In this document: in pieces, positions 2,033-16,815 of the stretch
How positions within the stretch are numbered: the stretch's first letter is position 1
Layout: every line of letters starts with the position of its first letter
DNA from: Candidatus Pyrohabitans jungbluthii
Lineage (GTDB): Archaea > Hydrothermarchaeota > Hydrothermarchaeia > Hydrothermarchaeales > BMS3B
DNA length: 64,000 nt
Assembly (NCBI GenBank): GCA_002010065.2
Contig: MTMD02000005.1
Span: 22,180 to 86,179, forward strand
Direction: 5' to 3'
The notes under the pieces: generated by a model
Told to the model about the DNA's origin: nothing
Databases searched by the model: none
The model's input: only the letters and a program-made list of their open reading frames with translations
Position numbers and translations under genes: made by a program

Positions 2033-2047
2033 CACAAAGTTATAAAT
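2033..2047 (+). promoter_or_regulatory. BRE/TATA promoter for the small peptide gene
   Basis: cacaaag-TTATAAAT about 35 nt upstream of ATG 2082; SD GGGTGAT at 2072-2078. Confidence 0.65.
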
Positions 2048-2081
2048 ATCCCACAGAATCAAAAATAGTCAGGGTGATTAA

Positions 2082-2150
2082 ATGAAAATCGTGAAGAAGG
2101 AGAAGAAAGTCGCATATGCGACCTGCAAGTGTCACAAGAGCTGCATGTAG
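2082..2150 (+). CDS. Putative RiPP precursor peptide, 22 aa MKIVKKEKKVAYATCKCHKSCM
   Basis: Manually translated (below the ORF-track cutoff); SD, TATA, downstream T-tract; Lys-rich leader-like N-terminus and CxCxxxC C-terminus; lies upstream of an RRE-rSAM-SPASM gene. Confidence 0.75.
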   Translation: MKIVKKEKKVAYATCKCHKSCM

Positions 2151-2169
2151 CTCTTTTTCTTTTATTTTT
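2151..2169 (+). terminator. Oligo-T terminator/attenuator after the precursor gene
   Basis: ctctttttcttttattttt immediately after TAG. Confidence 0.55.
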
Positions 2170-2180
2170 GAGGTGATGGC

Positions 2181-2321
2181 ATGGACTTAACCGAAGAGAT
2201 TCGAGCGAGAGTGTGCAAGCGCTGCGACTTCTACAAAGAGGGTGAAACTCTAGAGTGCGCCGCCTTTAAGACGGCAAAGCGCTTGGTTGAGCAGGGCAGG
2301 ATTAGTTTGGACGAGATATAA
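2181..2321 (+). CDS. 46-aa Cys-containing protein MDLTEEIRARVCKRCDFYKEGETLECAAFKTAKRLVEQGRISLDEI
   Basis: Manually translated; strong SD GAGGTGA at 2170-2176; CxxC…C motif; ends 13 nt before the maturase ATG. Confidence 0.75.
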   Translation: MDLTEEIRARVCKRCDFYKEGETLECAAFKTAKRLVEQGRISLDEI

Positions 2322-2334
2322 ACTGCGCATTGCC

Positions 2335-3516: not shown

Positions 3517-3890
3517 CCCCTCATAGCCACTGCTTTCTTAAACTCTTCCCAGCCTATGGCAACATCTAACGTATACCCCTCCCCTGCCATTGCCTTCATC
3601 ATGTTCATAACCTTCTCTCTGAGTTTTTCCTTCCCAAGCTCTTCCACCTCCTCATGCTCCTCCGGGAAGTAGTAAACCATGAGCCTCTCCCCCATGTCGT
3701 GGTAAAGCAGGGGAATTTCATAGCGATTGAGCTTTCCGCACCTCTCACAGGCAGCGATATTGAGTTCCTGTTTGAAGAGTTTACCCTTCAGCTCCGGGTC
3801 GAGGGTGACATTTACGCTGTGGTAAAGCGCAGCCTCAACCTCGCTCCCGCACCACCCGCATTTCAGTTTGTAAACCCCAACCTGAGTCAT
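3510..3890 (-). CDS. CpXC-domain zinc-ribbon protein
   Basis: CGWCG…SVNVTLDPELK…CERCG…LLYHD pattern. Confidence 0.75.
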   Translation of the reverse strand: MTQVGVYKLKCGWCGSEVEAALYHSVNVTLDPELKGKLFKQELNIAACERCGKLNRYEIPLLYHDMGERLMVYYFPEEHEEVEELGKEKLREKVMNMMKAMAGEGYTLDVAIGWEEFKKAVAMRGH

Positions 3891-3998
3891 ATCTCAGCCT
3901 CCCATAGCTATATGTTATTGGTGCTTGCTTATATAAAATTTTAAAAGGAGTCCATCACAACAACTGGCCCTTAAAAGGCATGAGAAAAACAAAGAGGA

Positions 3999-5618
3999 TT
4001 AAAACTCCGGCATTGACGGCATCTCTGATTTCTCACCTTCCTTCTCCTTCTCAAGCTTGCTTGCAGCGATTATGTCGTCTATTCGCAGTATCATCACCGC
4101 GACCTCGCTCGCTGATGAGATCGCCTGCGTTTTGACGCACACCGGCGTTATAAGCCCTGCCTCGAAAGTGTCCTTGAGCTCGCCAGTGGTTACGTCGTAG
4201 CCGTAGTCAGGGCCCTTCTCGTGGGCTTTTCTCAGTTCTACCAGCACGTCGATGGGGTCAAGGCCGGCGTTCTCCGCCAGAGCGCGGGGTATTGCTTCAA
4301 TGGCGTCCGCAAACGCTTCTATTGCAAGCTGCTCGCGCCCGCCCACTGTAACAGCGTAATCCCTCAGCCTGAGTGCCACCTCCACCTCGGGTGCACCTGC
4401 TCCAGCTACAACTTTGCCTGCGCGTATCGCCGCGGCTACAACGCCTATCGCATCCTCAATGGCGCGCTCCGCCTCGTTCACGACGTGCTCAGTACCGCCT
4501 CGCACAAGTATTGTAACCGCCTTTGGATCCTTGCAGTCCCGCACGAATACCATCTCATCGTCGCCTATCTTAACTTCCTCTACCACACCTGCGTAGCCTA
4601 AATCAGCACTGCTCAAGTCCTCAAGGCTTGAGACTATCTTCGCTCCCGTGGCCTTAGCCAGCTTCTTCATATCGCTCTCCTTAACCCTGCGCACAGCAAA
4701 AATGCCCTCCTTGGCAAGGAAGTGCTGGGCTAGGTCGTCTATACCCTTCTGGCACAGCACAACATTAGCTCCGCTCGCTTTAATCTTCTCCACCATGCTG
4801 CGGAGCATGCGCTCCTCTTCGTCCATAAACGCCTGAAGCTGGTCGGGAGCGGTTATGTTGATTTTCGCATCCACCTCCGTCTTCTTAACTTCCAGCGCAG
4901 ACTTTATCAGTGCAATCTTAGCCTCCTTCACCGAGCGGGGCATTCCAGCATGCACCTTCTCCTTGTCCAGAACAATGCCATTCACCAGCTGGGTATCCTC
5001 TATACCACCGCCCGCCTTCTTCTCTATCTTTATTAAATCCCTGTCAACTACGCTATCCTCGCGCACCTTCTGCACAGCTTCTACGACTATGCTTGCAAGG
5101 TGCTCCTTCGCCTTCTCTGCCCCCTTGCCAGTCATCGCCATTATAGCAACCTTCTTCAGCATTTCCGCGTCGTCGGGAGAAATCTCGTGTGCCATTTCAT
5201 TGAGAATCTCCCTCGCCTTTTCAGCGGCCATGCGGTAACCCCTTGCAATAAGCGTCGCATGAACTTCCTGGTCAAGGAGCTCTTCTGCACGTTTTAGAAG
5301 TTCGCCCGCAAGCACCACCGCGGTGGTTGTGCCGTCGCCAACCTCGCTCTCCTGGGTTTTGGCGATCTCCACTATCATCTTGCCCACAGGGTGCTCTATG
5401 TCCATCTCTTTGAGTATCGTCACGCCGTCGTTGGTTATTGTGACATCGCCTAGGCTATCGACGAGCATCTTGTCCATTCCTCTCGGCCCGAGGGTGGTTC
5501 TCAGTGTCTCAGCTATTATCCTCGCTACCATTATGTTTGTGCGCCTCGCTTCACTACCACGGGTACGCTGCGTACCCTCCTTGAGTATCAGTACAGGCTG
5601 CCCTCCCATTGTTGCCAT
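3999..5618 (-). CDS. ths: Thermosome (group II chaperonin) subunit
   Basis: [26 protein letters not shown]; SD GGAGGTG favours start at 5618. Confidence 0.97.
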
Positions 5619-5717
5619 CACATCAAACACCTCCATCTCCATTATAATAAATAATGGTTAGAAAAATATTAACGGGGTGGTTTTTATTTTTTGCGCTCCC
5701 CTCGCAAGGTTATTCCT

Positions 5718-6914
5718 TCAAACCTTTATTTTTTCATACTTTAGGAGGTAGGCGAGGATGAGCCCTATGATGAATGCCCATGCTAAGTTGCTCATAAGCG
5801 TAATACCCAGCATCACCAGGGGCACGTAGAACTCCCTCTTTCCTTTTAAGTCCTTTATCATCGTCATAAGCTCTGCGCCTGCGATGAAAAGGAGCACGCC
5901 TAAGATTGAGAAGGGCAGAAGCTTTATTATCTCTATTGAGCTTTCTCCGAAGAGTATAGCAACGCCAAGGAAGAAGCTTCCTATTATTATGTTGTTCCCC
6001 GCGGTGCGTGCCCCGAAGCGGTAGTGCGCGGCTAAGCCACCTGCGCCATGGCACATGGGCATGCCCTTTAACAGGAAGGAGCCGATGTTTGCTAACCCCT
6101 GACTTATGGAGAGAGCCCTGTAGGTTACTCTGTTTGCCCTACCGCCGAAGTAGCTCTTCGCCAGGTCGTGCTGGGCGATTACCGCATTGCCGAGGGTCAT
6201 GGGAATCTGGGGGAGCACCAGAAGGAAGAAGGCGGTAACAAAATCGTCAACGCTCGGCATGCCCTCGAGAAAAATTGGCCTGGGGAGGTGCACGCCGAGA
6301 GCCACGTGGGGGGTTTCAAAGGCCAAGCCTACCAGGAAACCCCCAATCACTATTATAAGAGCAGCCGGCGCACGTCTGTTCTCAAGGAGGAGGTATGCCA
6401 CCGCTAAGCTTGCCACCCCCAGCAGGAAGTAGACGCTTACATCGCCTATACCAAGCTCAGCTAGCTTAAACTGGTAGCTTGGAACAACCTCTGAGCTTGG
6501 GGGCGCCTTTATGAATTCCAGGCCACGGATAAGTAGCAGCGTGCCCACGCTGAGCTGCACCCCTCTGACGACGGTCTTGGGAACATACCGGCTGAGTTCT
6601 ATTAAACCCGTGGCTCCGAGAAACAGCAAGATAGCACCCACGAGGAGGGCGGCGGCGTAGATTATGTTAGGAGTTATCATGGCATAGTTTGCTATTGCGT
6701 AGGCGCCGATAACCTTCATGGGCTGCACCGGCGTAGGCACGCGGTAGTAGGCTCCAGCGAGGATGTAAAAAAGCCCCACCATGAAGAACAGGCCTACAGC
6801 GCTCACGCCATTGAGAAGGATCATTCCCAGGGCGAGAGGTAGAAGCGTGCCTAGGTCGCCAAGTGAACCTGCAGCTTCCATCCTGTCAAACCTGTAATGC
6901 TTGCCTATCTGCAT
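5718..6914 (-). CDS. MOT1-family molybdate (sulfate) transporter
   Basis: GSLGDLGT, PVQPMK, PMCHGAGGLAAHYRFGART motifs; many TM helices. Confidence 0.88.
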   Translation of the reverse strand: MQIGKHYRFDRMEAAGSLGDLGTLLPLALGMILLNGVSAVGLFFMVGLFYILAGAYYRVPTPVQPMKVIGAYAIANYAMITPNIIYAAALLVGAILLFLGATGLIELSRYVPKTVVRGVQLSVGTLLLIRGLEFIKAPPSSEVVPSYQFKLAELGIGDVSVYFLLGVASLAVAYLLLENRRAPAALIIVIGGFLVGLAFETPHVALGVHLPRPIFLEGMPSVDDFVTAFFLLVLPQIPMTLGNAVIAQHDLAKSYFGGRANRVTYRALSISQGLANIGSFLLKGMPMCHGAGGLAAHYRFGARTAGNNIIIGSFFLGVAILFGESSIEIIKLLPFSILGVLLFIAGAELMTMIKDLKGKREFYVPLVMLGITLMSNLAWAFIIGLILAYLLKYEKIKV

Positions 6915-7028
6915 CTTAAGAATAAAAAGTTATAACAATAAAAAATTAATTTATTATATTTAAAATCAATTATCCTTGATATTTCGATTATTTAAGTGCC
7001 CAGCGTTTCAAAATCTGCTCAGAGGTAT

Positions 7029-7355
7029 TTACAATTTGAGCTTTTTCAGGACATTCTCAATTTCCCCATATGTGGCGTCGCCCTGAATGGCAACCTCCCG
7101 CCCTACTATCAGTGCCGGAAGCTGCTCAACACCGAGCTTTTCAGCCCTGCGCAGGTTGCGAGGAAAGTGGTATACTATAAGTTTGTTGCCATGCAGGTCT
7201 TCGAAAACGCTCATGGTGTTTACCCACTTTCGTCCAGTCTTTTCTTCCAGCGCCTGCATCAACGCCTTCTCAAACTCCTCACTCTCATTTGGAAATTCAA
7301 CGCCACAGCAGCCATCTGGCACAGGCAGGGATTTTCTGAGGAACTCTATTATCAT
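7029..7355 (-). CDS. Small thioredoxin-fold, ArsD-like protein with vicinal CC
   Basis: DGCCG near N-terminus; GVEQLPALIVGREVAIQG cis-Pro loop; 7 nt downstream of tfx. Confidence 0.55.
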   Translation of the reverse strand: MIIEFLRKSLPVPDGCCGVEFPNESEEFEKALMQALEEKTGRKWVNTMSVFEDLHGNKLIVYHFPRNLRRAEKLGVEQLPALIVGREVAIQGDATYGEIENVLKKLKL

Positions 7356-7362
7356 ATCTATC

Positions 7363-7800
7363 TCACTCCACTATGACTCTCCCACTTCTCAGAATGCTGA
7401 CCCCTATTTTACCAACGATGCGATTTCCCTGAATCCTGCTTCCCGCGTGCCTGCGCAACATGCCTATAAGCGAGGTCTTGTTGTGCACCACCTTTATGCC
7501 ATGGCGGTCTGCGATGCGGAGAATCTTCTCAGGCGCGGTGAAAAGCTCTTCGCCCTCCTCCAGGAGCACCCTCACCGGCGAGAGCCTTTCAAAGGCAATG
7601 ATGGTGCGCCTCGCCTTCTCCACATTCTCCCTGGCGCGCTTCTCGAGTATTGCCACGTTCTCCCGCGTTGTTCCCAGAAGCTCTGCAATCTCGCGCTGCT
7701 TGTAACCTTTAGCGCGCAGCTCCAGGATTTTAAGCTGCTTCTCCGTCAGGAAGCCGTTGTAGCGGGTCAAGCTACCACCTGCCGTTAAATCTGTGAGCAT
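7363..7800 (-). CDS. tfx: Tfx-family DNA-binding protein
   Basis: LTEKQLKILELRAKGYKQREIAELLGTTRENVAILEKRARENVEKA HTH plus Tfx C-terminal segment. Confidence 0.85.
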   Translation of the reverse strand: MLTDLTAGGSLTRYNGFLTEKQLKILELRAKGYKQREIAELLGTTRENVAILEKRARENVEKARRTIIAFERLSPVRVLLEEGEELFTAPEKILRIADRHGIKVVHNKTSLIGMLRRHAGSRIQGNRIVGKIGVSILRSGRVIVE

Positions 7801-7804
7801 GTAA

Positions 7805-8025
7805 ATAAATATTTCCGCTTACATCTCCGGTGCAGCATCGCTCTCTGCCCATCTTTTTTTCTGAAAGAGTAAACAGATTATATTACGTCCAACCAAATAT
7901 TTAAGTGGTGGAGGGTCAAGCTGATAGATAAAGTATATGGATTTATGAGTATACGTAAACATTTTTGCTTACAATTCCAAAATATTTGCACAACTTTTAT
8001 ATAATGGGTTATCTTTCTACGTTAC
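7805..8025. promoter_or_regulatory. Divergent tfx/tupA promoter region with four GTAA-N10-TTAC-like palindromes
   Basis: Exact at 7869-7886 and 7955-7972; one mismatch at 7805-7822 and 8008-8025; TATA ttttatata at 7995-8003. Confidence 0.6.
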
Positions 8026-8046
8026 AAAATTTTCAGGAGGTGTAGT

Positions 8047-9033
8047 ATGAAGTTGAAGCTGCTCGGAGTGTTTTTTGTGCTTTTTCTCCTCACGCTGAAC
8101 CTTGGATGCACCGCCAAGGAGGAGGCCAAAGCGCCTTCGGAGGGTGCAGCGGCACAGGAGGCACAGGCGTCTAAGGAAATGCCTAAGCTGGTCCTCGCCA
8201 CGACGACCAGCACCTACAACTCAGGCTTGCTCGAGGTGCTCAACACAGAGTTTCAGAAGAAGTACGGTGTACTTGTGGAGGTGCACGCCGTCGGCACGGG
8301 CGCAGCTATACGCATGGCGCGGGACGGTGAGGTCGACGTTGTGCTTGTGCACGCCCGCGGCAAGGAGGACAAGTTCCTTGAGGATGGCTACGGCATCAAC
8401 CGGCGCAATGTGATGTACAACGATTTTATCATTGTAGGACCCAAAAGCGACCCAGCTGGCATTCGCGGCATGAAGAGCGCAGCGGAGGCTTTCAAGAAGA
8501 TAGCCAAAGCCCAGGCGAAGTTCGTCTCCCGCGGAGACAACTCGGGCACGCATGCAAAGGAGCAGACTATCTGGAAGCTCGCCGGCATTACCCCAAGCGG
8601 CGACTGGTACGAGCAGACCGGGCAGGGAATGGGCAAGACGCTAACTATAGCCAGTGAAAAGCAGGCTTACACCCTAACCGACAGGGGCACCTTCCTCGCC
8701 TACAAGGGCAAGCTCGATTTGGAAGTGCTCGTGGAGGGCCCAGTGAAGGGCGGCGATCCCACGCTTTCGAACCCCTACGCGGTTATCGCCGTGAATCCCA
8801 AAAAGTATCCTGACCGCAACTACGAGCTGGCGATGCTGTACATAGGCTTCCTTACCTCACCAGAGGGGCAGAAGCTTATCGCTGAGTACAGGAAGAACGG
8901 AGAGCAGCTTTTCTATCCTGACGCTCTCGTGGATAGGGAGAACTACAATCAGTACCTGCCCGTGACCATTCACGGGCTATACGACGAGCAGGGTGAGCCG
9001 TACACCGGCGTTACGCTACCACCAAAGGGCTGA
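8047..9033 (+). CDS. tupA: Tungstate ABC transporter substrate-binding lipoprotein
   Basis: ATTTSTYNSGLL, GTGAA, SRGDNSGTH, QGMG; lipobox-like LGC. Confidence 0.93.
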   Translation: MKLKLLGVFFVLFLLTLNLGCTAKEEAKAPSEGAAAQEAQASKEMPKLVLATTTSTYNSGLLEVLNTEFQKKYGVLVEVHAVGTGAAIRMARDGEVDVVLVHARGKEDKFLEDGYGINRRNVMYNDFIIVGPKSDPAGIRGMKSAAEAFKKIAKAQAKFVSRGDNSGTHAKEQTIWKLAGITPSGDWYEQTGQGMGKTLTIASEKQAYTLTDRGTFLAYKGKLDLEVLVEGPVKGGDPTLSNPYAVIAVNPKKYPDRNYELAMLYIGFLTSPEGQKLIAEYRKNGEQLFYPDALVDRENYNQYLPVTIHGLYDEQGEPYTGVTLPPKG

Positions 9034-9103
9034 GGCTTCTCAGCTCGCTTTCCTTTTTTCCATCAACGTTATTTTTATACTGGCTCACTGTGAGGGTGCT
9101 CTC

Positions 9104-9841
9104 ATGGAATACCTCGTAGAGGGGATTCTTCGTGCGGTAACGCTCATCCTCACCCTCGACCCCTACGTGATAAGCGTCGCCAAGGTTCAGATTATAGTCT
9201 CTACCAGCGCCGTTATACTAGCCTCTGCCACAGCAGTGCCAATTGCAGTGCTCTTCAGCTTCAGAAACTTCCCATTTAAGAACTTCCTTCTCACACTGAT
9301 AAACACAGGCATGGGTTTGCCGCCGGTAGTAGTGGGCCTGGTGGTGTTTGTGTTCTTCATGCGCCGCGGTCCCCTCGGCTTTCTGGATTTGGTTTATACC
9401 AGGGAGATAATGGTCATTGCGCAGTACCTCCTCGCTTTTCCCATAATACTCGGCGTGAGTATTGCTGCTATCAACGCCGTACCTAAGAGCATACGTGAGA
9501 CCGCCTATACCCTCGGGGCGCGGGATCGCGAAGTGGCACTGGTGGTGATTAAGGAAGCTGCCTTTGGAATAATCACAGGCATACTCGCGGGCGCTGGCAG
9601 AGTATTCGCCGAGGTGGGCGCTATTCTTACAGTTGGCGGAAACATCGCCTACGATATAGCCACGCCTGAGGGTATAATCCACGTCTCAAAGACGCGCACT
9701 CTCTCTACGGCTATCCCCCTTGAGACCAGCCAGGGAGATATAGCCGCTGCCATAGCGTTTGGGCTTATTCTTTTAACCATAACCTTCATCCTCAACCTTC
9801 TGGTGAGCTTCCTGCGCAGGAGGGCGAGTATTGAGGCGTAG
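9104..9841 (+). CDS. tupB: Tungstate ABC transporter permease
   Basis: NTGMGLPPVVVGL, EVGA…VGGNI, TRTL; start moved to ATG 9104. Confidence 0.92.
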   Translation: MEYLVEGILRAVTLILTLDPYVISVAKVQIIVSTSAVILASATAVPIAVLFSFRNFPFKNFLLTLINTGMGLPPVVVGLVVFVFFMRRGPLGFLDLVYTREIMVIAQYLLAFPIILGVSIAAINAVPKSIRETAYTLGARDREVALVVIKEAAFGIITGILAGAGRVFAEVGAILTVGGNIAYDIATPEGIIHVSKTRTLSTAIPLETSQGDIAAAIAFGLILLTITFILNLLVSFLRRRASIEA

Positions 9842-10928
9842 CATTGTGCGCCTGGAAAACATAAGTAAGCACTTCTCTGGCAGAGAAGTGCTGAGCAGGA
9901 TAAACCTTGAGATAAGGGAGGGGGAGCTTCTAACCCTACTCGGACCAAGCGGCGCAGGCAAGACGACACTCATGCGCATTATCAACCTCTTCACCAAGCC
10001 AAGCGAGGGGAAGCTCTACTTCCGCGACAGGGAGGTAACCCGCCTGAGTGGCGACGCCCTGCTTGAGGTAAGGCGCAGCATGGTGATGGTATTTCAGAAG
10101 CCGGTGATGTTCTCGGGCAGCGTGTTTGACAATGTCGCCTATGGGTTGAGAATAAGGGGCTATTCCAGGGCAGAGATTGAGCGCAGGGTTAAAGAGGCGC
10201 TTCGCCTTGTTGGTCTGGAAGGTTACGAGGAGCGCAACGCCCGTACATTGTCTGGGGGCGAAGCCCAGCGCGTAGCCTTTGCTCGTGCAGTTGTGATTCA
10301 ACCTGAGCTTCTTTTGCTGGACGAGCCCACCACCAGCTTGGACCCGATAAGCGAAGCCAGGGTGCACAGCATAATAAGGAAGATAAAGGAGCTTGGGATA
10401 AGTGTGGTGCTCACCACGCACAAGCAGCATGAGGCTATCGCTTTGGGTGACCGTGTGGCGGTGCTCAAAGATGGCAAGCTCCAGCAGGTGGGCACCCCCC
10501 AAGAGGTTATATACACACCAAAAACACGCTTCGTCGCAGAATTTACGGGCATGGTGAACATCTACGATGGTGTTGTTGAGGAAGTGGGCAGCACCCACTG
10601 CACCGTCAGGGTGGGCGAGGTTGCTCTGATGATGCACGCCTTTGAGGCTTCTCGCGGGGAGCGCATCTGCATAGGCATACGCCCCGAGGAGGTTATGCTT
10701 CTTCGCACCGACGTGCCCCTGAACCCAAGACACAAAAACGTCCTTACCGGTGTGGTAAGCGAGATTTCACCTCAGGGCAGCGCCATGCTGAGACTGCGCA
10801 TTGCCAGCGGAGGCTTTGAGGTGAGCGCCGACGTGCCCAGGCACGTGGCTGAGAAGATGAGCATCCGCAAGGGCGGCGAGGTGCTCTTCTCTCTTAAAAC
10901 CTCCTGTTTGCGCAGGCTTGAGGAGTAG
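9831..10928 (+). CDS. tupC: Tungstate ABC transporter ATPase with TOBE domain
   Basis: GPSGAGKTT, LSGGE, LLLDEP; C-terminal OB/TOBE-like region. Confidence 0.92.
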   Translation: MRRSIVRLENISKHFSGREVLSRINLEIREGELLTLLGPSGAGKTTLMRIINLFTKPSEGKLYFRDREVTRLSGDALLEVRRSMVMVFQKPVMFSGSVFDNVAYGLRIRGYSRAEIERRVKEALRLVGLEGYEERNARTLSGGEAQRVAFARAVVIQPELLLLDEPTTSLDPISEARVHSIIRKIKELGISVVLTTHKQHEAIALGDRVAVLKDGKLQQVGTPQEVIYTPKTRFVAEFTGMVNIYDGVVEEVGSTHCTVRVGEVALMMHAFEASRGERICIGIRPEEVMLLRTDVPLNPRHKNVLTGVVSEISPQGSAMLRLRIASGGFEVSADVPRHVAEKMSIRKGGEVLFSLKTSCLRRLEE

Positions 10929-10989
10929 CTATATTAGTTTTAGGTCAGAATCAGTTAGCAGCATTGCTCCTCCTTCTAATGGAGTAAAA

Positions 10990-11075
10990 TGGTAATGGTT
11001 CACGGATATACGAAGCTCTGAGCGCAGCGAAGGGTTTTGGGTGAGCAATAGCCAACCGCATAGTTGCTGTTAGGT
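10990..11075 (-). repeat. attC-like site 1 (degenerate R' box)
   Basis: Minus strand ACCTAAC-AGCAA-CTATGCG…CGTATAT…ATTACCA; the DUF2075 stop TAA lies inside ACCTAAC; homologous to 12992-13075. Confidence 0.7.
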
Positions 11076-12968
11076 GACGTAATCATTATATATCTTATTT
11101 AATAATTCAGCCGTTTCTTTATCTTCACAGATAATGTAAGTACCTTTTATTCCTCTTGTCAAAAATATCCTATATCTATTCTTTAAAAGAAACAGCGCTT
11201 TTTCTTTTGCTTCTTTGTTTCCATTTTTCGCCTGAGAGAATAAATCTTTTAAACTTGGCTTTCCAATATTATCTTCACAATTGTCTCCGACTTCCCATTT
11301 GTTGTTTCTAATAACATAATCTCTGCCCCAAATTATGCCAGCATAATCAGTTTCAAAGCCTTGGCATCCGTAAATCGAGGCACATTTGTCAAGTTTGTTG
11401 GATTCCCCTCGTACCCAAAAAGGAACATAGTCCCTTTTAGGATCCATCAACCAATAAATTTTTTTGTTAAAATTTTTATAGATGTTTAAACCGGAGTAAA
11501 GTGGGTATCCTATTCTTAAATTTTTTATTGAAGAATGATTTTGAAAATCTCCTGGCGATTCTGTAAATGCTGCGATTAATGCAACTTTATTGTTTATTGC
11601 TTTGCTTTTCAGTGCATTATACATTTCATCAAAATCTGTAAATACCCTAAAATCATAGTTTTTCTTCCATGGGTCCACTAAGTCTTTGTTAATATTCACG
11701 GGACCAGTGATTAATTTTTCTACAAAAGCATGATAAGTCTCGCCGCCCTGAACCCTGTAAAATCCTTTCAGATACCTTTCTTTTACATACTTCCCTTGTT
11801 TTTGTGCTTCGTATTTAAAGTTTTCCGTAGTTCCTTCTTCTTCAGCATTAAGAATTTGTCCTTCATCGTAGAAAAAGACTGTAATTCTTCCTCTTTGAAC
11901 AGCATAGGTAATGTTTCTTTTGGTCATTCTTTGTGCCTCGTCATAAATTACAAGATCAAAGCTTCCATTAAAATTTTGTTCTGCAACTCCTCTAAATCTA
12001 GCTCTGGGTCCTACTGAATAAAATTTAATTGGGTTTGATAAGCCTCTTTGTATAGAATCAAAAATCTCTCTTATAGAGTTTATCAATCTATTATTGCGAT
12101 AAGCTAAAATTGTTTGATATTTTAAAGAAAGAGCGGAAAGCATAAGATGAATAGCAACTAAAGTTTTCCCGGAACCTGGAGCTCCTTGTACCAAATAAAT
12201 AATATCTTTTTTACCATTTCTTAAGTCTGCAATTATCTCTTCTATGAGCTTTAATTGTTCCTCCGATAATCCCCATCCATTTTGTGCTAAAGTTTCATAG
12301 CTTCTTTGTTTTATTTCCTCAAAGTGGTTTTTTATTGAATCAAAAAGTTGTTTGTTCTGAATATAAGTGCCATTTAAAAATTTTTCAATTGTCTTATTAT
12401 CCAGTGATGTTTTTAAACAACCTATTATAAATCGTTGGAATTGAACAGTATCATTTTTAAAGAAAACATTACCATTAAAGTTGATATTAATATTGTTTTT
12501 ATCAGCATTGTAAAATAATACACATCCTGAAAAGTTAAAATTTTTAGATTCTGAATGAGAAAATCTCAATTTACCTATGTAATTTTCCAACTGATATTCA
12601 GGATGACTTGAAATTCCTATATTACTCCGAACCAAAAAGTCTGTTACCTTATTAGCAAATGTCCATCCTTTCAACTCCGCAACAATAACCGCGGGATTAC
12701 CATTACTATTAGCACCAAATATCAATAAATCAATACGTTCATTACTAAAAGGCAAACGATATTCAAAGGTTACATCAAAATCAAGTAAGTTTTGATTGTT
12801 AAACACTTGTTTGAGGTATGCAATTGAAGATTTCCAAGCATTAATTTGTTGTATATCGGCATCCTCTCCATAAACATTCCAAAATCCATTTTTAAATGTA
12901 CTCAACAAGTCATCATCATTTTTTTGTATAAAATCTCTTATTTTACCAACATATATTTGATTTTTCAT
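11070..12968 (-). CDS. DUF2075 (Schlafen group-3-like) helicase/ATPase with N-terminal PD-(D/E)XK-like region
   Basis: FEYRLP…RIDL…ELKGW; Walker A GAPGSGKT; DEAQR; SIYGCQGFE; NRYRIFLTRG. Confidence 0.85.
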   Translation of the reverse strand: MKNQIYVGKIRDFIQKNDDDLLSTFKNGFWNVYGEDADIQQINAWKSSIAYLKQVFNNQNLLDFDVTFEYRLPFSNERIDLLIFGANSNGNPAVIVAELKGWTFANKVTDFLVRSNIGISSHPEYQLENYIGKLRFSHSESKNFNFSGCVLFYNADKNNININFNGNVFFKNDTVQFQRFIIGCLKTSLDNKTIEKFLNGTYIQNKQLFDSIKNHFEEIKQRSYETLAQNGWGLSEEQLKLIEEIIADLRNGKKDIIYLVQGAPGSGKTLVAIHLMLSALSLKYQTILAYRNNRLINSIREIFDSIQRGLSNPIKFYSVGPRARFRGVAEQNFNGSFDLVIYDEAQRMTKRNITYAVQRGRITVFFYDEGQILNAEEEGTTENFKYEAQKQGKYVKERYLKGFYRVQGGETYHAFVEKLITGPVNINKDLVDPWKKNYDFRVFTDFDEMYNALKSKAINNKVALIAAFTESPGDFQNHSSIKNLRIGYPLYSGLNIYKNFNKKIYWLMDPKRDYVPFWVRGESNKLDKCASIYGCQGFETDYAGIIWGRDYVIRNNKWEVGDNCEDNIGKPSLKDLFSQAKNGNKEAKEKALFLLKNRYRIFLTRGIKGTYIICEDKETAELLNKIYNDYVT

Positions 12969-12991
12969 TTCCTATTCCCCCAGATTATGTT

Positions 12992-13075
12992 GCCTAACAT
13001 TCCGGGGATATGTGAAGTTCGCCCGATAGGGCAAATTTTGGTGAGTGATAGCGAACCACATACTCACTGTTGTCC
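12992..13075 (-). repeat. attC-like site 2
   Basis: Minus strand GGACAAC-AGTGA-GTATGTG…CACATAT…GTTAGGC; inner hairpin TTTGCCC-TATC-GGGCGAA. Confidence 0.75.
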
Positions 13076-13140
13076 GAGTGCGTTGACACCGAAGCGAAGC
13101 GGAGAGTTCGGCTCGATGGTGATATGTCTATCAATCTACA

Positions 13141-14820
13141 TCATTTTAACTCTTCCTGTAGTGGAAAAACATTTTGGTCTTCAATAAAATCTTGCTTTAT
13201 CTCATTTATAAATTCTGGAATGTAATCGGGGAACTCATCAATAATCTTCTTAACAATATATCTATGTTTTTGAGCTTTTCTCAAACCCAACTCTTCAGAT
13301 TCTCTTTTAAACTCCTCATATCTATTATTAAGCCCGTTACTTTGGCAGTATTTCTCGAAATCCATTTTTGTTGCTGTCTCAAAGTTATTGTTAAATATTA
13401 ACAATTTCTGCCCAAATCTGCCGTTTATGAGCTTAAATACTTTGCTATCTTCGATTTTTTCAATATTGTCAACTGAAATATCAAAACATTCTGCAATAGT
13501 TTCATTGTTTCTTTTATTTGAAGATTTATCTATATCATTATCAAAAACAACTAACATTGGAATATTAAATTTGTAGAACAATCTCCAATATTTTGGTATC
13601 TGAGGCTTCCCTACAACCCCTATGACAGATATGCCTCTTTTATTTATATCAATCCCTGCTTTAGTTAATAAAAGAGGAAAGCATAATTCTTCTGTATCTC
13701 CTTCAACTAATATAATTTTCTTTGCAAAAAATGCTTCTTTTAACCTTTCGTTGGATGTAAGAGCATAAAAGTCGGTGATGTTTTCTACTGTAGATTTCCC
13801 TGCGGCACCAGTTTCATTTGAAAATTTGACTAAATCATTTTTAGAAACTTGTATTATCTTTGTACCTTTTTCTTTTGTTTTGTAAACAAGAGCTATATTT
13901 TCAAAATGCTCTGTTTCAATAAATGTTGATGAATGGGTCGTAATCATTATTTGTATATTTGAATTTCTAACTATTTCTTTGAAAATTTTAAGCAAGTGTC
14001 TTCTTGCTTGTGGATGCATATAAATTTCAGGTTCTTCAATGATCAACAAACCTTGAGCTTCATTTTTAAAATTTTTGGCATAAGCTCTCAATAGAGAGAG
14101 AATAATAAGGTTTCTGCTACCTTCACCTAATTCTTCAATATCAATATCGTAATCATCACCCAAGATTTTATCATTTGTAAGGATGTTAATGGTTTTGAAG
14201 TAATTTAATGGAGAAAACGGCTTGAAATCAACTTTTAATTTATATGATGAATCTGCTTGCATTTCCTCAAATAATACGCAGAAATCTTCTTTAAATTGTT
14301 TAAATTCGTCAATTTTTTCTAGAATTTCCATAACTTCGTTAAATTTACTTTCTAATTCTTCTGTTAAATTTCTTTTTCTAACGAGTTTATTAAATGAGTG
14401 CGCAATTTTCCCCATCAAAGCCCATTTATTAAATGAAAGTGTTTGAGGAATACCTCTTTCAGCTGAAAGATAATTACAAGGGAAGTCTTCTTTTATATTG
14501 CTCTGATTTGACCTAATTGGATTTCCATTTTCATCAAAGTATTTAGGCCAGCCTTTTTGGCTGTTAAATTCAACTCTTCTGCCATTATCAAACTTAATGG
14601 TTATTTCAATTGGATTGTTAGTATTCCTCATATAAAAATCTATTGAATCAATATTTTTACCCCACCATCCTTCTCCTAAAATATTATTAATAGCTCTAAC
14701 TATATTCGATTTACCAGCATTATTAGCTCCAACTAAAACCATCAGTCCGCTCTCGGGAAACCAGAATTCTAAATCTTTAATTGAACGAAAGTTTTTTATA
14801 TGAACTTTTTTAATTTTCAT
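13141..14820 (-). CDS. OLD-family ATP-dependent nuclease (ABC ATPase + TOPRIM)
   Basis: IKNFRSI, GANNAGKS, LGEG, IIEEPEIYMHP, TTHS, ILVEGDTE, FDND. Confidence 0.9.
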   Translation of the reverse strand: MKIKKVHIKNFRSIKDLEFWFPESGLMVLVGANNAGKSNIVRAINNILGEGWWGKNIDSIDFYMRNTNNPIEITIKFDNGRRVEFNSQKGWPKYFDENGNPIRSNQSNIKEDFPCNYLSAERGIPQTLSFNKWALMGKIAHSFNKLVRKRNLTEELESKFNEVMEILEKIDEFKQFKEDFCVLFEEMQADSSYKLKVDFKPFSPLNYFKTINILTNDKILGDDYDIDIEELGEGSRNLIILSLLRAYAKNFKNEAQGLLIIEEPEIYMHPQARRHLLKIFKEIVRNSNIQIMITTHSSTFIETEHFENIALVYKTKEKGTKIIQVSKNDLVKFSNETGAAGKSTVENITDFYALTSNERLKEAFFAKKIILVEGDTEELCFPLLLTKAGIDINKRGISVIGVVGKPQIPKYWRLFYKFNIPMLVVFDNDIDKSSNKRNNETIAECFDISVDNIEKIEDSKVFKLINGRFGQKLLIFNNNFETATKMDFEKYCQSNGLNNRYEEFKRESEELGLRKAQKHRYIVKKIIDEFPDYIPEFINEIKQDFIEDQNVFPLQEELK

Positions 14821-15050
14821 GGCTAAACCCCCCGTTCAGGATGATTTTCTTCATCTCTTCAAGTTGAGTTATTTGGTTCTGGATTTTCTCATTTAGGGTT
14901 TTGATTTTTTCATAAACACCGTCAAGGTAATTTGCTATTTCTTTTTGCTTTTCAAGGTTTATTTGGTTGTTGTGGAAGGGGGATTTTTACTAATAAAAGC
15001 TTTTTATTGGATATTCCAATCTGCCCGATCCATTTTGTAGCTTCCTTCCT
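14810..15050 (-). pseudogene. hsdS: C-terminal remnant of a type I R-M specificity subunit, frameshifted
   Basis: …QIGISNKKLLLVKIPLP / NNQINLEKQKEIANYLDGVYEKIK…LEEMKKIILNGGFSHEN*; overlaps the OLD start; no start codon found. Confidence 0.75.
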
Positions 15051-15115
15051 ACCACCTCCCGACATCCGAATTTAATGACTTTTGATATCACTTAAATCTT
15101 TCGCAGTGGTTTGGG

Positions 15116-15952
15116 TCAAAAGCCGCCGAATAGACTGTAAACCTCAGCCAAAAGCCACACCAGCAGCGCCGCGAAGAATACTGCGGGAAGCGCCGGGTAG
15201 GCTTTTTTAGCACTCTTCAGTGTGAAGCGCAGGAAGACGAGCATGGCTATGGCAGCTGAGAAGATAGCGGCGATTCCCCAGGCTAAGCCAAGCTCTGCGT
15301 AGCTCGCCGCAGCCACGGAGGAGGCGAAGAGCAGGTCGCCGAAGCCCAGAACAAGGCGATTTTCATCAGCAACGCCCACATCCACCCCGAAGGGTACGCC
15401 CGCTTTTTCTAACTGAGACGCAAGCTTGGGTATGGCTTGCTTTCTTAGTACATAGTAGTAGTCCAGCATGGCAAGCAGAGCCAAGCCGAGCACAAGCGCC
15501 CCGAGGCTGAGGTAGCTTGCCAGCGTGGCACCCGCTACGCCAGAGAAGCAAACGAGCTGCAGATTTCTCATCCACGGTTTAAGCTTTTTGGGAGCGGCAA
15601 AGGGCAGGAGCAGGGCTACAAGCAACACCAACAGGAAGAGAAGGCTCGGCGCAGGAAGTAGCGCCTCAAGCATTGAGAGCAGTATGAGGATTATTAGAGC
15701 GTAGCTGAAGTAGGCTGAGGCGAGAACCGCAAACTTGACCATTTTCAAGAATGCGCGAGAGCGGAAGAGGATGAGGTAGAGGTTAAGCGCAAGGATGAAG
15801 AGCACAGGCATGGCAAGAGCATAGCCGAAGCCAGCATTCGCCTGCGTCTCCGCCTCGCCCACGCTGGGAGTGAGGAGGAGCTCATGCTGGTACAGCAGCG
15901 CTGCAGCGCCGGAGAGAAGGAGGAAGAATATTATGAGCGCTTCGCTTCTCAT
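15116..15952 (-). CDS. Presenilin/SPP-like GxGD intramembrane aspartyl protease
   Basis: LD (YD-like), LGFGDL, PALP motifs; about 9 TM. Confidence 0.8.
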   Translation of the reverse strand: MRSEALIIFFLLLSGAAALLYQHELLLTPSVGEAETQANAGFGYALAMPVLFILALNLYLILFRSRAFLKMVKFAVLASAYFSYALIILILLSMLEALLPAPSLLFLLVLLVALLLPFAAPKKLKPWMRNLQLVCFSGVAGATLASYLSLGALVLGLALLAMLDYYYVLRKQAIPKLASQLEKAGVPFGVDVGVADENRLVLGFGDLLFASSVAAASYAELGLAWGIAAIFSAAIAMLVFLRFTLKSAKKAYPALPAVFFAALLVWLLAEVYSLFGGF

Positions 15953-16815
15953 TCTTCGAATATCTCCTCGGTCTCACCCCTAAAGACGCGCTTCGCGGGG
16001 CCACGCATTCGCAGGTTGACCACCTCTCCGTCTTCCACCTCGACTTCAACGTAGAGCGTGCCACCGCGGGCGCGTATCTCTATTGGCTTCTCCGGCGAAG
16101 CCTCGCCCAGGAGCACTGCGATGGCGCCGCATGCGGTTATACCCGTGCCGCACGCTAAGGTCTCGCCCTCCACGCCGCGCTCATAGGTGCGCACCGCGAA
16201 GAGGTTCTCTCCCAGCTTCTCCACGAAGTTGACGTTCGTGCCCTGAGGGAAAGCCTCATGGAAGCGCAGCGCCCTGCCTAAGCGGAGAACGTCTACATTG
16301 GCAAGGTCGTGCACAAATACAACGGCGTGAGGCACGCCAGTGTTTACAGCGCTCACCTCAAGCTCCTCTCCGGCTACGCGTAGCTTCTGCTTTATAAACC
16401 TCCCTTCCCCCAGCGCAGGTATCTCTTTTCGCAAAAATCGCGGCAAGCCCATCTCAACCCGCACTTCCTTGGCGATGCCGTCGCTGGGGTAAACCTCGAC
16501 ATTGAGCACTCCTGCGAGGGTCTCTATGCGCATCTTCTCCCGCTTAACTATTCCAAAGTCGTAGAGATGCTTTGCAAAGCAGCGCATGCCATTGCCGCAC
16601 ATCTCAGCCTCGCTGCCGTCGCTGTTGAAGTATCTGAAGCGCGCGTCTGCTTTATCGGAGCGCTCCACAAGCAGCAACCCATCGCCGCCCACGCCGAAGT
16701 GACGGTGGCACAGCTTCCTCGCCAGCTCAGGCTTTGTCTTTTCTTCGATCTCGCCACGCAGGTTCTCCACTAGAACAAAGTCGTTGCCCGCGCCGTGATA
16801 CTTGTAGAATTTCAT
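15949..16815 (-). CDS. dapF: Diaminopimelate epimerase
   Basis: HGAGNDF, EMCGNG, ERGVEGETLACGTG. Confidence 0.97.
   Translation of the reverse strand: MKFYKYHGAGNDFVLVENLRGEIEEKTKPELARKLCHRHFGVGGDGLLLVERSDKADARFRYFNSDGSEAEMCGNGMRCFAKHLYDFGIVKREKMRIETLAGVLNVEVYPSDGIAKEVRVEMGLPRFLRKEIPALGEGRFIKQKLRVAGEELEVSAVNTGVPHAVVFVHDLANVDVLRLGRALRFHEAFPQGTNVNFVEKLGENLFAVRTYERGVEGETLACGTGITACGAIAVLLGEASPEKPIEIRARGGTLYVEVEVEDGEVVNLRMRGPAKRVFRGETEEIFEE

What the first reader, a model, noticed from the sequence alone, without database searches (positions are those of the whole stretch)
10990..13075. Integron-type gene cassette in an archaeal chromosome, with two attC sites and no integrase
Seen: two related 84-86 bp imperfect palindromes flank the DUF2075 gene. 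On the coding strand the unit starts G/TTAGGC about 25-30 nt before the ATG, leaving no room for a promoter. It ends with the stop codon inside ACCTAAC, which is complementary to that start. The L-box stems covary (TATGTG/CACATA versus TATGCG/CGTATA). The distal site has GTT mutated to ATT and may be frozen. Known: this matches attC cassette anatomy; archaeal integrons and CALINs are reported but rare. Inference: cross-domain capture of a bacterial-type cassette.
Basis: partly seen in the sequence, partly recalled or inferred. Interest (0 to 1): 0.75.

Follow-up and report, generated by a model that had tools for sequence, protein, structure and literature searches.

The report
Integrase-less gene-cassette array in an archaeon
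Two folded recombination sites of the integron (attC) type close two imported anti-virus genes in the chromosome of a hydrothermal archaeon, and they belong to a site family that is common in this phylum and differs from textbook integrons in its site shape and its likely enzyme.

Summary
Window 10990-11075 and 12992-13075 are two related (73% identical) elements on the minus strand, each just behind a gene. They are the only two copies in the 2.0-Mb genome. A covariance model built only from 34 sites of other genera scores them at 71 and 54 bits, and nothing else in the 64 kb.

The family occurs in 25 of 38 Hydrothermarchaeota genomes, in gene-spaced arrays and almost always behind same-strand stop codons. 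The 3' box of one site is complementary to the 5' box of the next, which is the integron cassette signature. In three relatives an attI-like site lies 58-80 nt behind an IntI/XerA-like recombinase gene, followed by cassettes. The window genome has neither, so this is a two-cassette orphan array (CALIN-like). It carries an OLD nuclease and a DUF2075 nuclease-helicase in a 30%-GC island. A congener has a different cassette at the same locus, and another has the site empty.

Departures from canonical integrons:
- The sites show no extrahelical bases.
- The central spacer is asymmetric.
- A three-way junction is conserved.
- The associated recombinase lacks the IntI-specific domain.

Archaeal integrons are already published (Ghaly 2022). 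"Bacterial-type cassette" is only partly supported.

The parts
12992..13075 (-). Proximal attC-type site (W_R). It closes the OLD cassette. Its 3' box GTTAGGC (12998-12992) holds the G|TT boundary at which the DUF2075 cassette begins. The 5' box is GGACAAC (13075-13069). The L stems are 13062-13057 and 13014-13009.
   Evidence: Sequence. It scores 71.1 bits, E 2.8e-17, with model R2, which was built without this genome. Family covariation is shown.
10990..11075 (-). Distal attC-type site (W_L). It closes the DUF2075 cassette. The 5' box ACCTAAC (11075-11069) contains the gene's TAA stop. The L stems are 11062-11057 and 11012-11007. The 3' box is ATTACCA (10996-10990), with ATT in place of GTT.
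   Evidence: Sequence. It scores 54.5 bits, E 1.3e-12, with R2. Its 3' half is shared with the terminal site of congener G001.
11070..12968 (-). Cassette gene 2: a 632-aa DUF2075 / Schlafen-group-3 helicase with an N-terminal D...ExK nuclease-like motif (Nhi/AbiO/PDC-S41-like defence candidate). GC is about 30%.
   Evidence: Pfam PF09848 at 1.2e-68. PADLOC PDC-S41 at 1.2e-31, Nhi at 1.4e-14 and AbiO at 3e-12. D80, E98 and K100 are invariant in alignment A4. GC profile.
10996..12997 (-). Cassette 2 as a unit, from the TT after G|TT of W_R to the base that stands for G in the 3' box of W_L. It comprises a 29-nt leader with a GGGGG ribosome-binding stretch, the DUF2075 gene, and its attC-type site.
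   Evidence: Boundary logic. The same 5' end (GTTAGG[C/A]RAC, 29-35 nt before the ATG) and the same 3' end (TAA inside CCTAAC) occur in homologous cassettes L072, L073 and L075.
13141..14820 (-). Cassette gene 1: a 559-aa OLD-family ATPase-TOPRIM nuclease (defence candidate). GC is about 31%.
   Evidence: Pfam AAA_15 at 8.5e-41 and OLD-like TOPRIM at 2.3e-21. PADLOC Old at 4e-56 and GajA at 1.9e-41.
12998..15044 (-). Cassette 1 region: an hsdS-like remnant, the OLD gene, a 65-nt GC-rich spacer and W_R. Its 5' boundary is not a recognisable G|TT box. 15044 is where homology to the congener's flank resumes.
   Evidence: The expected partner of the W_R 5' box was not found in 14801-15400. Homology breaks are shown. 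A low-depth contig in run X2 joins 11016 to 15044.
14826..14990 (-). Start-less reading frame resembling the C-terminal coiled-coil end of a type I restriction specificity subunit (a remnant).
   Evidence: Translation. The Pfam Methylase_S match is only E 0.044, below threshold, so support is weak.
9831..10928 (+). Host flank: the ATPase of an ABC transporter with a TOBE domain (the operon spans 8047-10928).
   Evidence: Pfam. The flank is conserved in relatives.
15116..15952 (-). Host flank: a membrane protein gene, followed upstream by dapF (15949-16815). Both lie on the same strand as the cassettes, so read-through transcription is possible (inference).
   Evidence: ORFs. Pfam. Conserved in G001 and G004.

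Best explanation
Window ~10990-15044 is a 4.1-kb, 30%-GC, integrase-less array of two mobile gene cassettes on the minus strand. It lies between an ABC-transporter operon and a membrane-protein gene of a Hydrothermarchaeota chromosome. Each cassette is an ORF followed by an attC-type site: OLD nuclease plus W_R, then DUF2075 nuclease-helicase plus W_L.

Inferred mechanism, by analogy with integrons:
- The G-rich antisense ('bottom') strand of a site folds. The 5' and 3' boxes pair to form an R box, and the inner repeats pair to form an L box.
- A tyrosine recombinase cuts at AA|C (G|TT on the coding strand). It exchanges this strand with an attI-like site or with another attC-type site.
- Cassettes are thereby inserted or excised as circles.

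The likely enzyme is an IntI/XerA-related recombinase that lacks the IntI-specific domain. It is encoded next to attI-like sites in some relatives but not in this genome, so any movement here would need the enzyme in trans.

Shown: the site family, the array and boundary logic, locus polymorphism, absence of the recombinase, and the gene identities.
Inferred: strand folding, the cleavage point, which enzyme acts, and the defence function of the two genes.
For: 1. Family. Model R1 finds sites in 20 of 35 genomes of the order. Model R2 finds 72 sites in 25 of 38 genomes of the phylum. G000 has only the two window sites.

2. Cross-validation. R2 was built without this genome or genus, and it scores the window sites 71.1 and 54.5 bits.

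3. Structure.
- 76.8% of cells are paired, against 64.1% when shuffled.
- 99 cells change on both sides, against 33.7 (0 of 500 shuffles reach the observed value).
- All slid registers fall far below.

4. Position.
- 34 of 40 assessable sites start -18 to +85 nt after a same-strand ORF stop.
- The figure is 10 of 38 for opposite-strand ORFs.
- In 6 sites the stop codon is the TAA of the 5' box.

5. Cassette boundaries.
- In 10 adjacent site pairs, the 3' box of site n matches the 5' box of site n+1 at 5.0 of 7 variable positions.
- The figure is 3.42 within one site and 3.44 for all other pairs (permutation p 0.0008).

6. Platform in relatives.
- An attI-like site (...ATATGAASGAG|TTA...GAA) lies 58-80 nt after the recombinase stop in G012, G018 and G011.
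- In 5 of 5 attI-to-attC pairs on one contig, the junction is complementary to the cassette's 5' box at 8-10 of about 10 positions.

7. Locus polymorphism.
- G001 (same genus) has a different cassette at the same site.
- G004 has a 165-nt empty intergenic region there.
- A contig of a related strain in run X3 joins 10928 to 15146.

8. Strand.
- The antisense strand is more stable in 38 of 43 sites (-14.08 against -11.99 kcal/mol).
- The sense strand has negative GC skew.
- Both match the direction and size reported for 263 attC sites (2.12 kcal/mol; passages of PMC5027507).

9. No IntI and no G012-type recombinase in G000. No attI-like motif either.
Against: - No extrahelical bases. 16 of 43 sites have a perfect 11-bp L helix. 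The conserved 'TT' that I first took for a bulge pairs inside a hairpin of a three-way junction.
- The central spacer is 5-6 nt on the AAC arm of the bottom strand but only 1-2 nt on the other arm. Canonical sites have 5-6 nt on each arm (passage).
- At the fixed offsets I used, only 24 of 43 5' boxes fit RYYYAAC and 10 of 43 3' boxes fit GTTRRRY. AAC is present in 38 of 43 and GTT in 29 of 43.
- In the window, the 5' box of W_R (GGACAAC) has no complementary partner upstream of OLD. W_L has ATT.
- Single-sequence folds are not better than shuffles.
- 2 of the 10 adjacent pairs show only 3-4 of 7 complementary positions without an explanation.
- The IntegronFinder/HattCI attC model could not be run, and no recombination was observed. 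The run data were contigs, which cannot show rare excision.
- Linkage of the recombinase to arrays rests on three genomes. G006 has 6-7 sites, is 99% complete, and has no such gene.
Confidence: 0.85

Rival explanations
1. It is an ordinary archaeal CALIN of the kind already published. The sites would be found by the standard attC model, they would be recombined by canonical IntI with the additional domain, and the departures I list fall within normal attC diversity.
For: Ghaly et al. 2022 report integrons, mostly CALINs, in 75 archaeal MAGs, including 3-4% of Hydrothermarchaeota genomes. [quoted passage not shown] That arrangement matches G012, G018 and G011. The strand energy bias matches canonical attCs.
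Against: No recombinase in 35 genomes of the order reaches the TIGR02249 cut-off. All five two-part matches skip model positions ~172-235. The G012 protein has 20 residues where VchIntIA has 60. Extrahelical bases are absent and the spacer is asymmetric. Prevalence here is 25 of 38 genomes, against the 3-4% reported. I could not see the supplements of that paper, so I cannot say whether their Hydrothermarchaeota sites belong to this family.
Confidence: 0.3
2. The sites are dif-like targets of a Xer-type recombinase, and the gene units are Xer-dependent modules. This would be comparable to the pdif modules of Acinetobacter plasmids or to IMEX elements (both recalled). Recombination would occur on double-stranded DNA, with no folded single strand.
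For: The associated recombinase passes the NCBIfam XerA model (237.6 bits, cut-off 220) and is collinear with XerA 5hxy. The attI-like site and the folded attC both present two imperfectly inverted arms around a 5-6-nt spacer.
Against: The recombinase is sporadic, with strong matches in about 4-6 of 35 genomes, so it is not a housekeeping gene. The units are bounded at G|TT with integron-type box complementarity. The long stems covary. The strand asymmetry, including a conserved G.T in the antisense strand against A.C in the sense strand, argues for single-strand folding.
Confidence: 0.1
3. The elements are RNA-level 3' structures (terminators or mRNA stabilisers) that travel with genes. They are not recombination sites.
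For: They lie directly behind same-strand stop codons and carry conserved hairpins.
Against: The antisense strand folds better than the sense strand in 38 of 43 sites. The 10-nt complementarity between a cassette's start and its own 5' box has no RNA rationale. Gene content differs at one locus between congeners. The sites are linked to attI-like sites and a recombinase. Rfam gave no match.
Confidence: 0.03
4. The elements are a MITE/REP-type dispersed repeat, or the attL/attR ends of a single 4-kb integrated island.
For: They are two similar elements in a low-GC island.
Against: There are only two copies in the genome. The elements lie in direct rather than inverted orientation, and one sits inside the island between two genes, not at its ends. 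At 73% identity with compensatory changes, they are not a fresh duplication. Elsewhere the family forms arrays of up to 5 sites, each behind a different gene.
Confidence: 0.02

Closest known systems
Archaeal integrons and CALINs (Ghaly et al. 2022, Sci Adv, PMC9668308)
   Same: Co-oriented ORFs are separated by folded sites that have AAC...GTT ends. Most arrays lack an integrase. The attI site lies directly downstream of the integrase gene. Sites are more alike within an order than between orders. Restriction and other defence functions are among the cassettes. Hydrothermarchaeota is listed among the carrier phyla.
   Different: The IntIs of that paper were required to match the IntI-specific domain profile. 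The recombinase beside arrays here lacks that region. Prevalence here is 25 of 38 genomes, against 3-4%. I could not check their supplementary lists, so overlap with this family is unknown.
Bacterial sedentary chromosomal integrons with lineage-specific attC families (e.g. Vibrio VCR arrays) and canonical attC structure (Nivina et al. 2016, PMC5027507)
   Same: Both have R and L boxes, a boundary at G|TT, and a 3' box that belongs to the next cassette. In both the bottom strand is about 2 kcal/mol more stable and G-rich. In both the site family is conserved within a lineage.
   Different: There are no extrahelical bases. The central spacer is 5-6 nt on one arm and 1-2 nt on the other. The terminal structure is a conserved three-way junction with a near-invariant CCCAAAT motif. 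Arrays are short, with 1-9 sites per genome.
Integron cassettes that encode phage defence (bioRxiv 10.1101/2024.07.02.601719; only the search listing and the start of the abstract were seen)
   Same: Single-gene defence candidates are carried as promoterless cassettes.
   Different: Here the host is an archaeon, the cassettes are large (about 2.0 kb each), and the defence function is inferred only from family matches.
XerA/dif and Xer-dependent gene modules (pdif modules, IMEX; recalled, not read here)
   Same: The recombinase is short and Xer-like without the IntI insertion. The sites present two inverted arms around a short spacer.
   Different: The sites have integron-type boundaries, long covarying hairpins, strand asymmetry, and array growth from an attI-like site.
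Gabija (OLD-family GajA plus a helicase GajB; composition recalled)
   Same: An OLD-family nuclease gene is followed by a helicase gene.
   Different: The two genes are separated by an attC-type site. They are not linked elsewhere: no OLD homologue lies beside any of the 49 fetched loci that hold DUF2075 homologues, nor beside the other cassette loci.

Membership tests
Integron attC site / gene cassette | Inverse core (RYYYAAC) at the 5' end and core (GTTRRRY) at the 3' end of the site | tested here: inconclusive
   In the window, the W_L 5' box ACCTAAC and the W_R 3' box GTTAGGC fit the consensus. The W_R 5' box GGACAAC keeps only AAC, and the W_L 3' box ATTACCA does not fit. In the family, read at fixed offsets, 24 of 43 sites fit RYYYAAC strictly and 38 of 43 have AAC. 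10 of 43 fit GTTRRRY strictly and 29 of 43 have GTT.
Integron attC site / gene cassette | The crossover at G|TT makes the 3' box of one site belong to the next cassette, so it is complementary to the 5' box of the next site | tested here: met
   10 adjacent pairs show 5.0 of 7 variable positions complementary. The figure is 3.42 within one site and 3.44 for other pairs, p 0.0008. The window pair shows 5 of 7 variable positions, 8 of 10 in all.
Integron attC site / gene cassette | Hairpin with paired inner repeats (L box), conserved as structure rather than as sequence | tested here: met
   13 of 16 model pairs show changes on both sides. 99 cells do so, against 33.7 in shuffles (0 of 500 reach it). 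Slid registers are far lower.
Integron attC site / gene cassette | Two or three extrahelical bases on the arm opposite the AAC triplet of the bottom strand | tested here: not met
   16 of 43 sites have an uninterrupted 11-bp L helix. The conserved TT pairs within a junction hairpin. The feature is defined as in the passages of PMC5027507.
Integron attC site / gene cassette | Unpaired central spacer of about 5-6 nt on each arm | tested here: not met
   The spacer is 5-6 nt on the 3' arm of the sense strand, which is the AAC arm of the bottom strand. On the other arm it is 1-2 nt. The offset is about 4 nt (3-4) in nearly all sites with a well-defined L helix and exactly 4 in all 11-bp-helix sites except the palindromic site in its weaker orientation.
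Integron attC site / gene cassette | Bottom strand folds better and is purine/G-rich | tested here: met
   The antisense strand has lower energy in 38 of 43 sites, with means of -14.08 against -11.99 kcal/mol. The sense strand is 20.0% G and 28.6% C. Compare the passages.
Integron attC site / gene cassette | Detected by the IntegronFinder or HattCI attC model | not testable with these tools
   That model is not in Rfam (searches gave no relevant hit) and is not installed here.
Integron attC site / gene cassette | Site follows a promoterless ORF in the same orientation | tested here: met
   34 of 40 assessable sites do so. In the window the leader is 29 nt.
CALIN (at least two attC sites less than 4 kb apart, no integron integrase) | Two sites less than 4 kb apart and no IntI | tested here: met
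   The sites are 2.0 kb apart. The best TIGR02249 match in the whole genome is 26.8 bits, against a cut-off of 265. No homologue of the G012 recombinase scores above 26 bits. Membership still depends on accepting the sites as attC.
Integron integrase IntI (for the recombinase beside arrays in relatives) | IntI-specific additional domain around patch III | tested here: not met
   In the G012 protein, residues 231-252 stand where VchIntIA has residues 170-231. All five two-part matches in the order skip TIGR02249 positions ~172-235. The whole protein scores 230.1 bits, below the 265 cut-off.
Integron integrase IntI (for the recombinase beside arrays in relatives) | Gene adjacent to an attI site that heads a cassette array | tested here: met
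   G012, G018 and G011 show it, that is 3 of the 3 strong matches for which downstream sequence resembling the motif is available. The weaker matches G026 and G008 do not show the motif.
XerA / dif chromosome-resolution system | Single housekeeping recombinase present throughout the lineage | tested here: not met
   Strong matches occur in only about 4-6 of 35 genomes, and there is none in G000 at 99.95% completeness. The protein does pass NF040815.
MITE / REP repeat | Many dispersed copies placed independently of gene ends | tested here: not met
   There are two copies in G000, and sites show a strong position bias behind stop codons.

The most novel reading that the evidence does not exclude
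The window holds an orphan array of a distinct, cross-domain class of integron-like system.

- Its recombinase is an IntI/XerA-related enzyme without the domain that canonical integrases use to read extrahelical bases.
- Its attI is itself a small hairpin-type site.
- Its attC sites have no extrahelical bases, and strand choice is set instead by an asymmetric spacer and a conserved three-way junction.

This class is common in Hydrothermarchaeota (25 of 38 genomes) and reaches bacterial MAGs. It may be largely invisible to the standard integron criteria.

The DUF2075 cassette, with conserved ends in Archaea and in MAGs labelled bacterial, would then be a traceable example of cross-domain cassette traffic.
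Probability: 0.45. Interest if true: 0.75.

Novelty: new variant of a known kind. Interest (0 to 1): 0.6.

Why it matters
Integrons are the best understood gene-capture machines of bacteria. Their mechanism is thought to depend on the IntI-specific domain reading extrahelical bases of a folded attC strand. Here a family follows integron bookkeeping (G|TT boundaries, attI-headed arrays, orphan arrays) but lacks both of those features.

If it recombines, strand choice and site recognition must work differently. In that case surveys based on the IntI-domain profile and the canonical attC model would undercount gene-cassette systems in Archaea.

The window also offers concrete test material:
- two intact sites, one with GTT and one with ATT;
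- a natural empty site;
- a cassette whose ends are conserved across domains.

It further shows that 2-kb single-gene defence candidates (OLD, DUF2075/Nhi-like) travel as cassettes in a hydrothermal archaeon. The attC-type site (49% GC) resembles the host in composition, while the gene (30% GC) does not. That contrast bears on the open question of how cassettes are made.

Tried and rejected
- Rfam, 9-17 kb at E up to 10 and the whole window at gathering score, gave nothing relevant.
- Single-sequence DNA folds did not beat shuffles.
- BLAST of each element against its own genome did not even find the other copy. A covariance model was needed.
- The search for related loci with the single DUF2075 protein found nothing. 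The alignment query worked.
- My first structure model treated a conserved TT as an extrahelical bulge on the sense strand. That would have made the coding strand the recombined one. I rejected this after three results:
  - the antisense folds;
  - the hairpin that closes AAA...CTT, with G.T in the antisense strand;
  - the attI and array logic.
- G.T against A.C counts within the L stems show no strand bias (39 against 45).
- I tried to decide from shared genes whether the site body travels with the upstream or the downstream gene. Only one informative pair turned up: upstream genes 70% identical with similar L cores.
- Gabija-like linkage of OLD and the helicase was rejected.
- A partner box for the 5' box of W_R upstream of OLD was not found.
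- The hsdS-remnant reading has only a sub-threshold Pfam match.
- The sequencing-run data were contigs only. They show strain-level alternatives, not excision events. Parts without cover in run X3 (14262-14649) carry no meaning.
- I did not build a generic attC model from plasmid integrons. A negative result from a small home-made model would have been uninformative.
- Earlier notes of this scan describe similar systems. I treat them as leads, not as evidence.
Full report
**Observation**

- W_L is 10990-11075 and W_R is 12992-13075. Both are read on the minus strand, and they align at 73% column identity.
- W_R lies between a 559-aa OLD-family nuclease gene (13141-14820) and a 632-aa DUF2075 helicase gene (11070-12968). 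W_L follows the helicase gene.
- The G|TT of GTTAGGC lies 29 nt before the DUF2075 ATG.
- The gene's TAA sits inside ACCTAAC, which pairs with GTTAGGC at 6 of 7 positions.
- The inner stems are TATGTG/CACATA and TATGCG/CGTATA. The distal 3' box has ATT.
- The genes sit in a 30%-GC island in a ~52%-GC chromosome.

Folded alone, the elements are not better than shuffles, and Rfam has nothing for them.

**Not a dispersed repeat**

BLAST and a degenerate 32-nt pattern find only the two copies in the 1.99-Mb, 99.95%-complete genome.

**A family in relatives**

A search with the left flank showed three states of this locus.
- G001, a congener, has a different AT-rich gene (192 aa) at the same locus. 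A related element follows that gene, and then a terminal element whose 3' half matches W_L.
- G004, another congener, has an empty 165-nt intergenic region there.
- G024, a genome of another family, has a related element behind a low-GC bPH-domain gene.

A covariance model from four elements (R1) found 53 matches in 20 of 35 genomes of the order. Many were spaced one gene apart on one contig or lay at contig ends.

A second model, R2, was built from 34 sites of other genera, with no sequence of this genome or genus.
- It scores W_R at 71.1 bits (E 2.8e-17) and W_L at 54.5 bits (E 1.3e-12).
- Nothing else in the 64 kb scores above 10.2 bits.
- It finds 72 sites in 25 of 38 genomes of the phylum.

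The host is a Hydrothermarchaeota archaeon. This rests on the names of its DapF relatives: 78% identity to Candidatus Pyrohabitans and 56-62% to Hydrothermarchaeales.

**Structure**

On 43 distinct sites the modelled pairs behave as follows.
- 76.8% of cells are standard pairs, against 64.1% in shuffles.
- 99 cells carry changes on both sides, against 33.7 (0 of 500 shuffles reach this).
- Every slid register is far lower.

The sense-strand consensus runs in this order:
- GTC plus a 5' box ending TAAC;
- 1-2 nt;
- an L arm of up to 11 nt;
- a variable part with a near-invariant CCCAAAT;
- AACTTC;
- the complementary L arm;
- 5-6 nt;
- a 3' box GTTA...GA(A/C).

**Position and boundaries**

Position:
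- 34 of 40 assessable sites begin -18 to +85 nt after the stop of a same-strand ORF of at least 50 aa. The figure for opposite-strand ORFs is 10 of 38.
- In 6 sites the stop codon is the TAA of the 5' box.

Boundaries:
- In 10 adjacent pairs, the 3' box of one site is complementary to the 5' box of the next at 5.0 of 7 variable positions.
- The figure is 3.42 within one site and 3.44 for all other pairs (p 0.0008). Two pairs are complementary at 10 of 10.
- Two pairs score only 3-4 of 7. For one of them, R2 later found a missed site in between (G018:C10:57733).

This is the bookkeeping expected if units are cut at G|TT and circularise, as integron cassettes do.

**Platform and enzyme**

No genome of the order has a match over the TIGR02249 (integron integrase) cut-off. 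The best matches are G018 (143+103 bits, split by a frameshift) and G012 (349 aa), and both lie on contigs that carry arrays.

The G012 protein:
- It scores 230 bits on TIGR02249, against a cut-off of 265.
- It passes the NCBIfam XerA model, whose name reads 'tyrosine recombinase/integron integrase'.
- Its best solved relative is VchIntIA, but it has 20 residues where that protein has 60. It is collinear with XerA.
- All five two-part matches in the order skip model positions ~172-235.

The attI-like site:
- A conserved site (...ATATGAASGAG|TTA...GAA, preceded by short palindromes) lies 58-80 nt behind the stop codon in G012, G018 and G011.
- The motif occurs exactly 9 times in the order and never in G000.
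- Where an attI-like site and an attC-type site share a contig (G012, G018, G024, G020 twice), the bases after G|TT are complementary to the cassette's own 5' box at 8-10 of about 10 positions.
- In G012 the first cassette is a methylase plus a CfrBI-like endonuclease.

G000 has no relative of this recombinase above 26 bits. The window array is therefore an orphan.

The recombinase family is very large: 7799 of the 8000 candidates scored at E<=1e-40. Members at 60-80% identity are labelled from several archaeal phyla and from 'bacterium'.

**Which strand**

I first read a conserved TT as a bulge on the coding strand. That would give the coding strand the geometry of a canonical bottom strand, as defined in the passages of Nivina et al. 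2016. Further tests reversed this.
- The antisense strand folds better in 38 of 43 sites (means -14.08 against -11.99 kcal/mol).
- The sense strand is G-poor. The direction and size match the 2.12 kcal/mol and the G enrichment reported for 263 attC sites (passages).
- The TT pairs with the AAA of CCCAAAT to close one hairpin of a three-way junction. That hairpin covaries and has G.T in the antisense strand where the sense strand has A.C.
- The attI-to-array order also requires the crossover at G|TT on the coding strand.

So the polarity is canonical but the shape is not.
- There are no extrahelical bases. 16 of 43 sites have a perfect 11-bp L helix.
- The spacer is 5-6 nt on the AAC arm of the bottom strand and 1-2 nt on the other.

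**The cassettes**

- OLD: PADLOC Old at 4e-56.
- DUF2075: PF09848 at 1.2e-68, with PADLOC hits to PDC-S41, Nhi and AbiO. D80, E98 and K100 are invariant, which suggests a PD-(D/E)xK nuclease. That motif assignment is my inference.
- Both are defence candidates.
- They are not a conserved pair. No OLD homologue lies beside any other fetched locus.

DUF2075 relatives at 61-67% identity lie mostly in MAGs labelled bacterial, and in one labelled Undinarchaeota. The bacterial labels are Gracilibacteria, Aminicenantes, Aquificaceae, Bacteroidales, Desulfothermus and Defluviitoga.
- In L072, L073 and L075 the gene has the same cassette ends as in the window: GTTAGG[C/A]RAC 29-35 nt before the ATG, and TAA inside CCTAAC.
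- R1 hits flank it in L073, L075 and L076.
- L072 has an attI-like site directly upstream.
- In Aquificaceae and others the gene has no such ends.
- L072 and L075 are contigs of 4.2-4.4 kb, so their taxonomic labels are weak. L073 lies on an 87-kb contig.
- The MAG holding L075 also encodes a recombinase that lacks the same region, followed by a similar site.

Cross-domain movement of this cassette is therefore plausible. Its direction is open, and the site type is native to the archaeal phylum.

**Population data**

Three runs hold the stretch, all as contigs. When they were laid on the window:
- Run X3 has a contig of a related strain, with about 10 differences in the flank, that joins 10928 to 15146 with 9 other letters. 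This is an empty site.
- Run X2 has a low-depth contig that joins 11016, inside W_L, to 15044.
- Contigs cannot show rare excision.

**Literature**

- Ghaly et al. 2022. I read the Results, two Methods sections and some passages; the supplements were closed. The paper already reports archaeal integrons, mostly CALINs, in nine phyla including Hydrothermarchaeota. It reports attI downstream of intI, and IntIs defined by the IntI-specific profile.
- Smyshlyaev et al. 2021 (passages only) note that the insertion is 'not fully conserved' in their integron-like subgroup.
- Two searches for archaeal or integron-like cassette systems with other recombinases returned no paper that links an insertion-less recombinase to cassette arrays. 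This covers only the held library.
- Earlier notes of this scan describe similar systems in other genomes. They agree with my reading but are not independent evidence.

**Verdict**

The integron-type reading is right in logic: an orphan two-cassette array. The family departs from canonical attC and IntI definitions in features that I tested. 'Bacterial-type' and 'frozen' are not established.

Noticed in passing
window 61500-64000: A second low-GC stretch (30-40% GC) begins next to a tRNA gene (61444-61507, minus strand) and runs to another tRNA at the window end (63946-64000). It may be an element integrated at a tRNA.
   Followed up: no
window 13076-13140: A GC-rich 65-nt spacer lies between the OLD stop and W_R. 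It contains CCGCTTCGCTTCGG-like strings that resemble the variable part of other family sites. It may be a remnant of a further site. No model hit was found there.
   Followed up: partly
window 14826-14990 (minus strand): A start-less frame resembles the C-terminal end of a type I restriction specificity subunit. The Pfam Methylase_S match is only E 0.044.
   Followed up: partly
L121 (G018:C10:45500-60500) 2380-9648: About 7.3 kb lies between the attI-like site and the first detected attC-type site. It holds nucleotidyl-, CDP-alcohol- and glycosyl-transferase genes and a GH130 gene. This is either one giant cassette or sites that the models miss.
   Followed up: partly
L122 (G012:C32) 1988-4388: The first cassette behind the attI-like site is a two-gene restriction-modification unit: an N6/N4 methylase plus a CfrBI-type endonuclease (2.5e-110).
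   Followed up: yes
L121 12876-12957 (G018:C10:58375-58456): One site scores almost equally on both strands (28.0 and 27.7 bits). It is a near-perfect palindrome of the family.
   Followed up: no
G020 contigs C19, C76, C124: Three exact attI-like motifs occur in one genome that shows no recombinase match (93% complete). Two of them are followed by one cassette and an attC-type site. The 'attI-like' site may be a second, short class of cassette site rather than a unique platform site.
   Followed up: partly
L153 (G036:C41) 2330-2440: A MAG labelled Bacteroidales encodes a 386-aa recombinase that also skips TIGR02249 positions 180-237. It is followed by ...GCGCATATAAACTAG|TTAGCG, which resembles the archaeal attI-like sites.
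   Followed up: partly
G000:C6:74010-74576 and ~400-aa homologues in most genomes of the order: The only clear tyrosine recombinase of G000 is a 403-aa protein that matches Xer/IntI models weakly (26.8 bits). Proteins of similar size recur across the order and may be the lineage's housekeeping recombinase.
   Followed up: no
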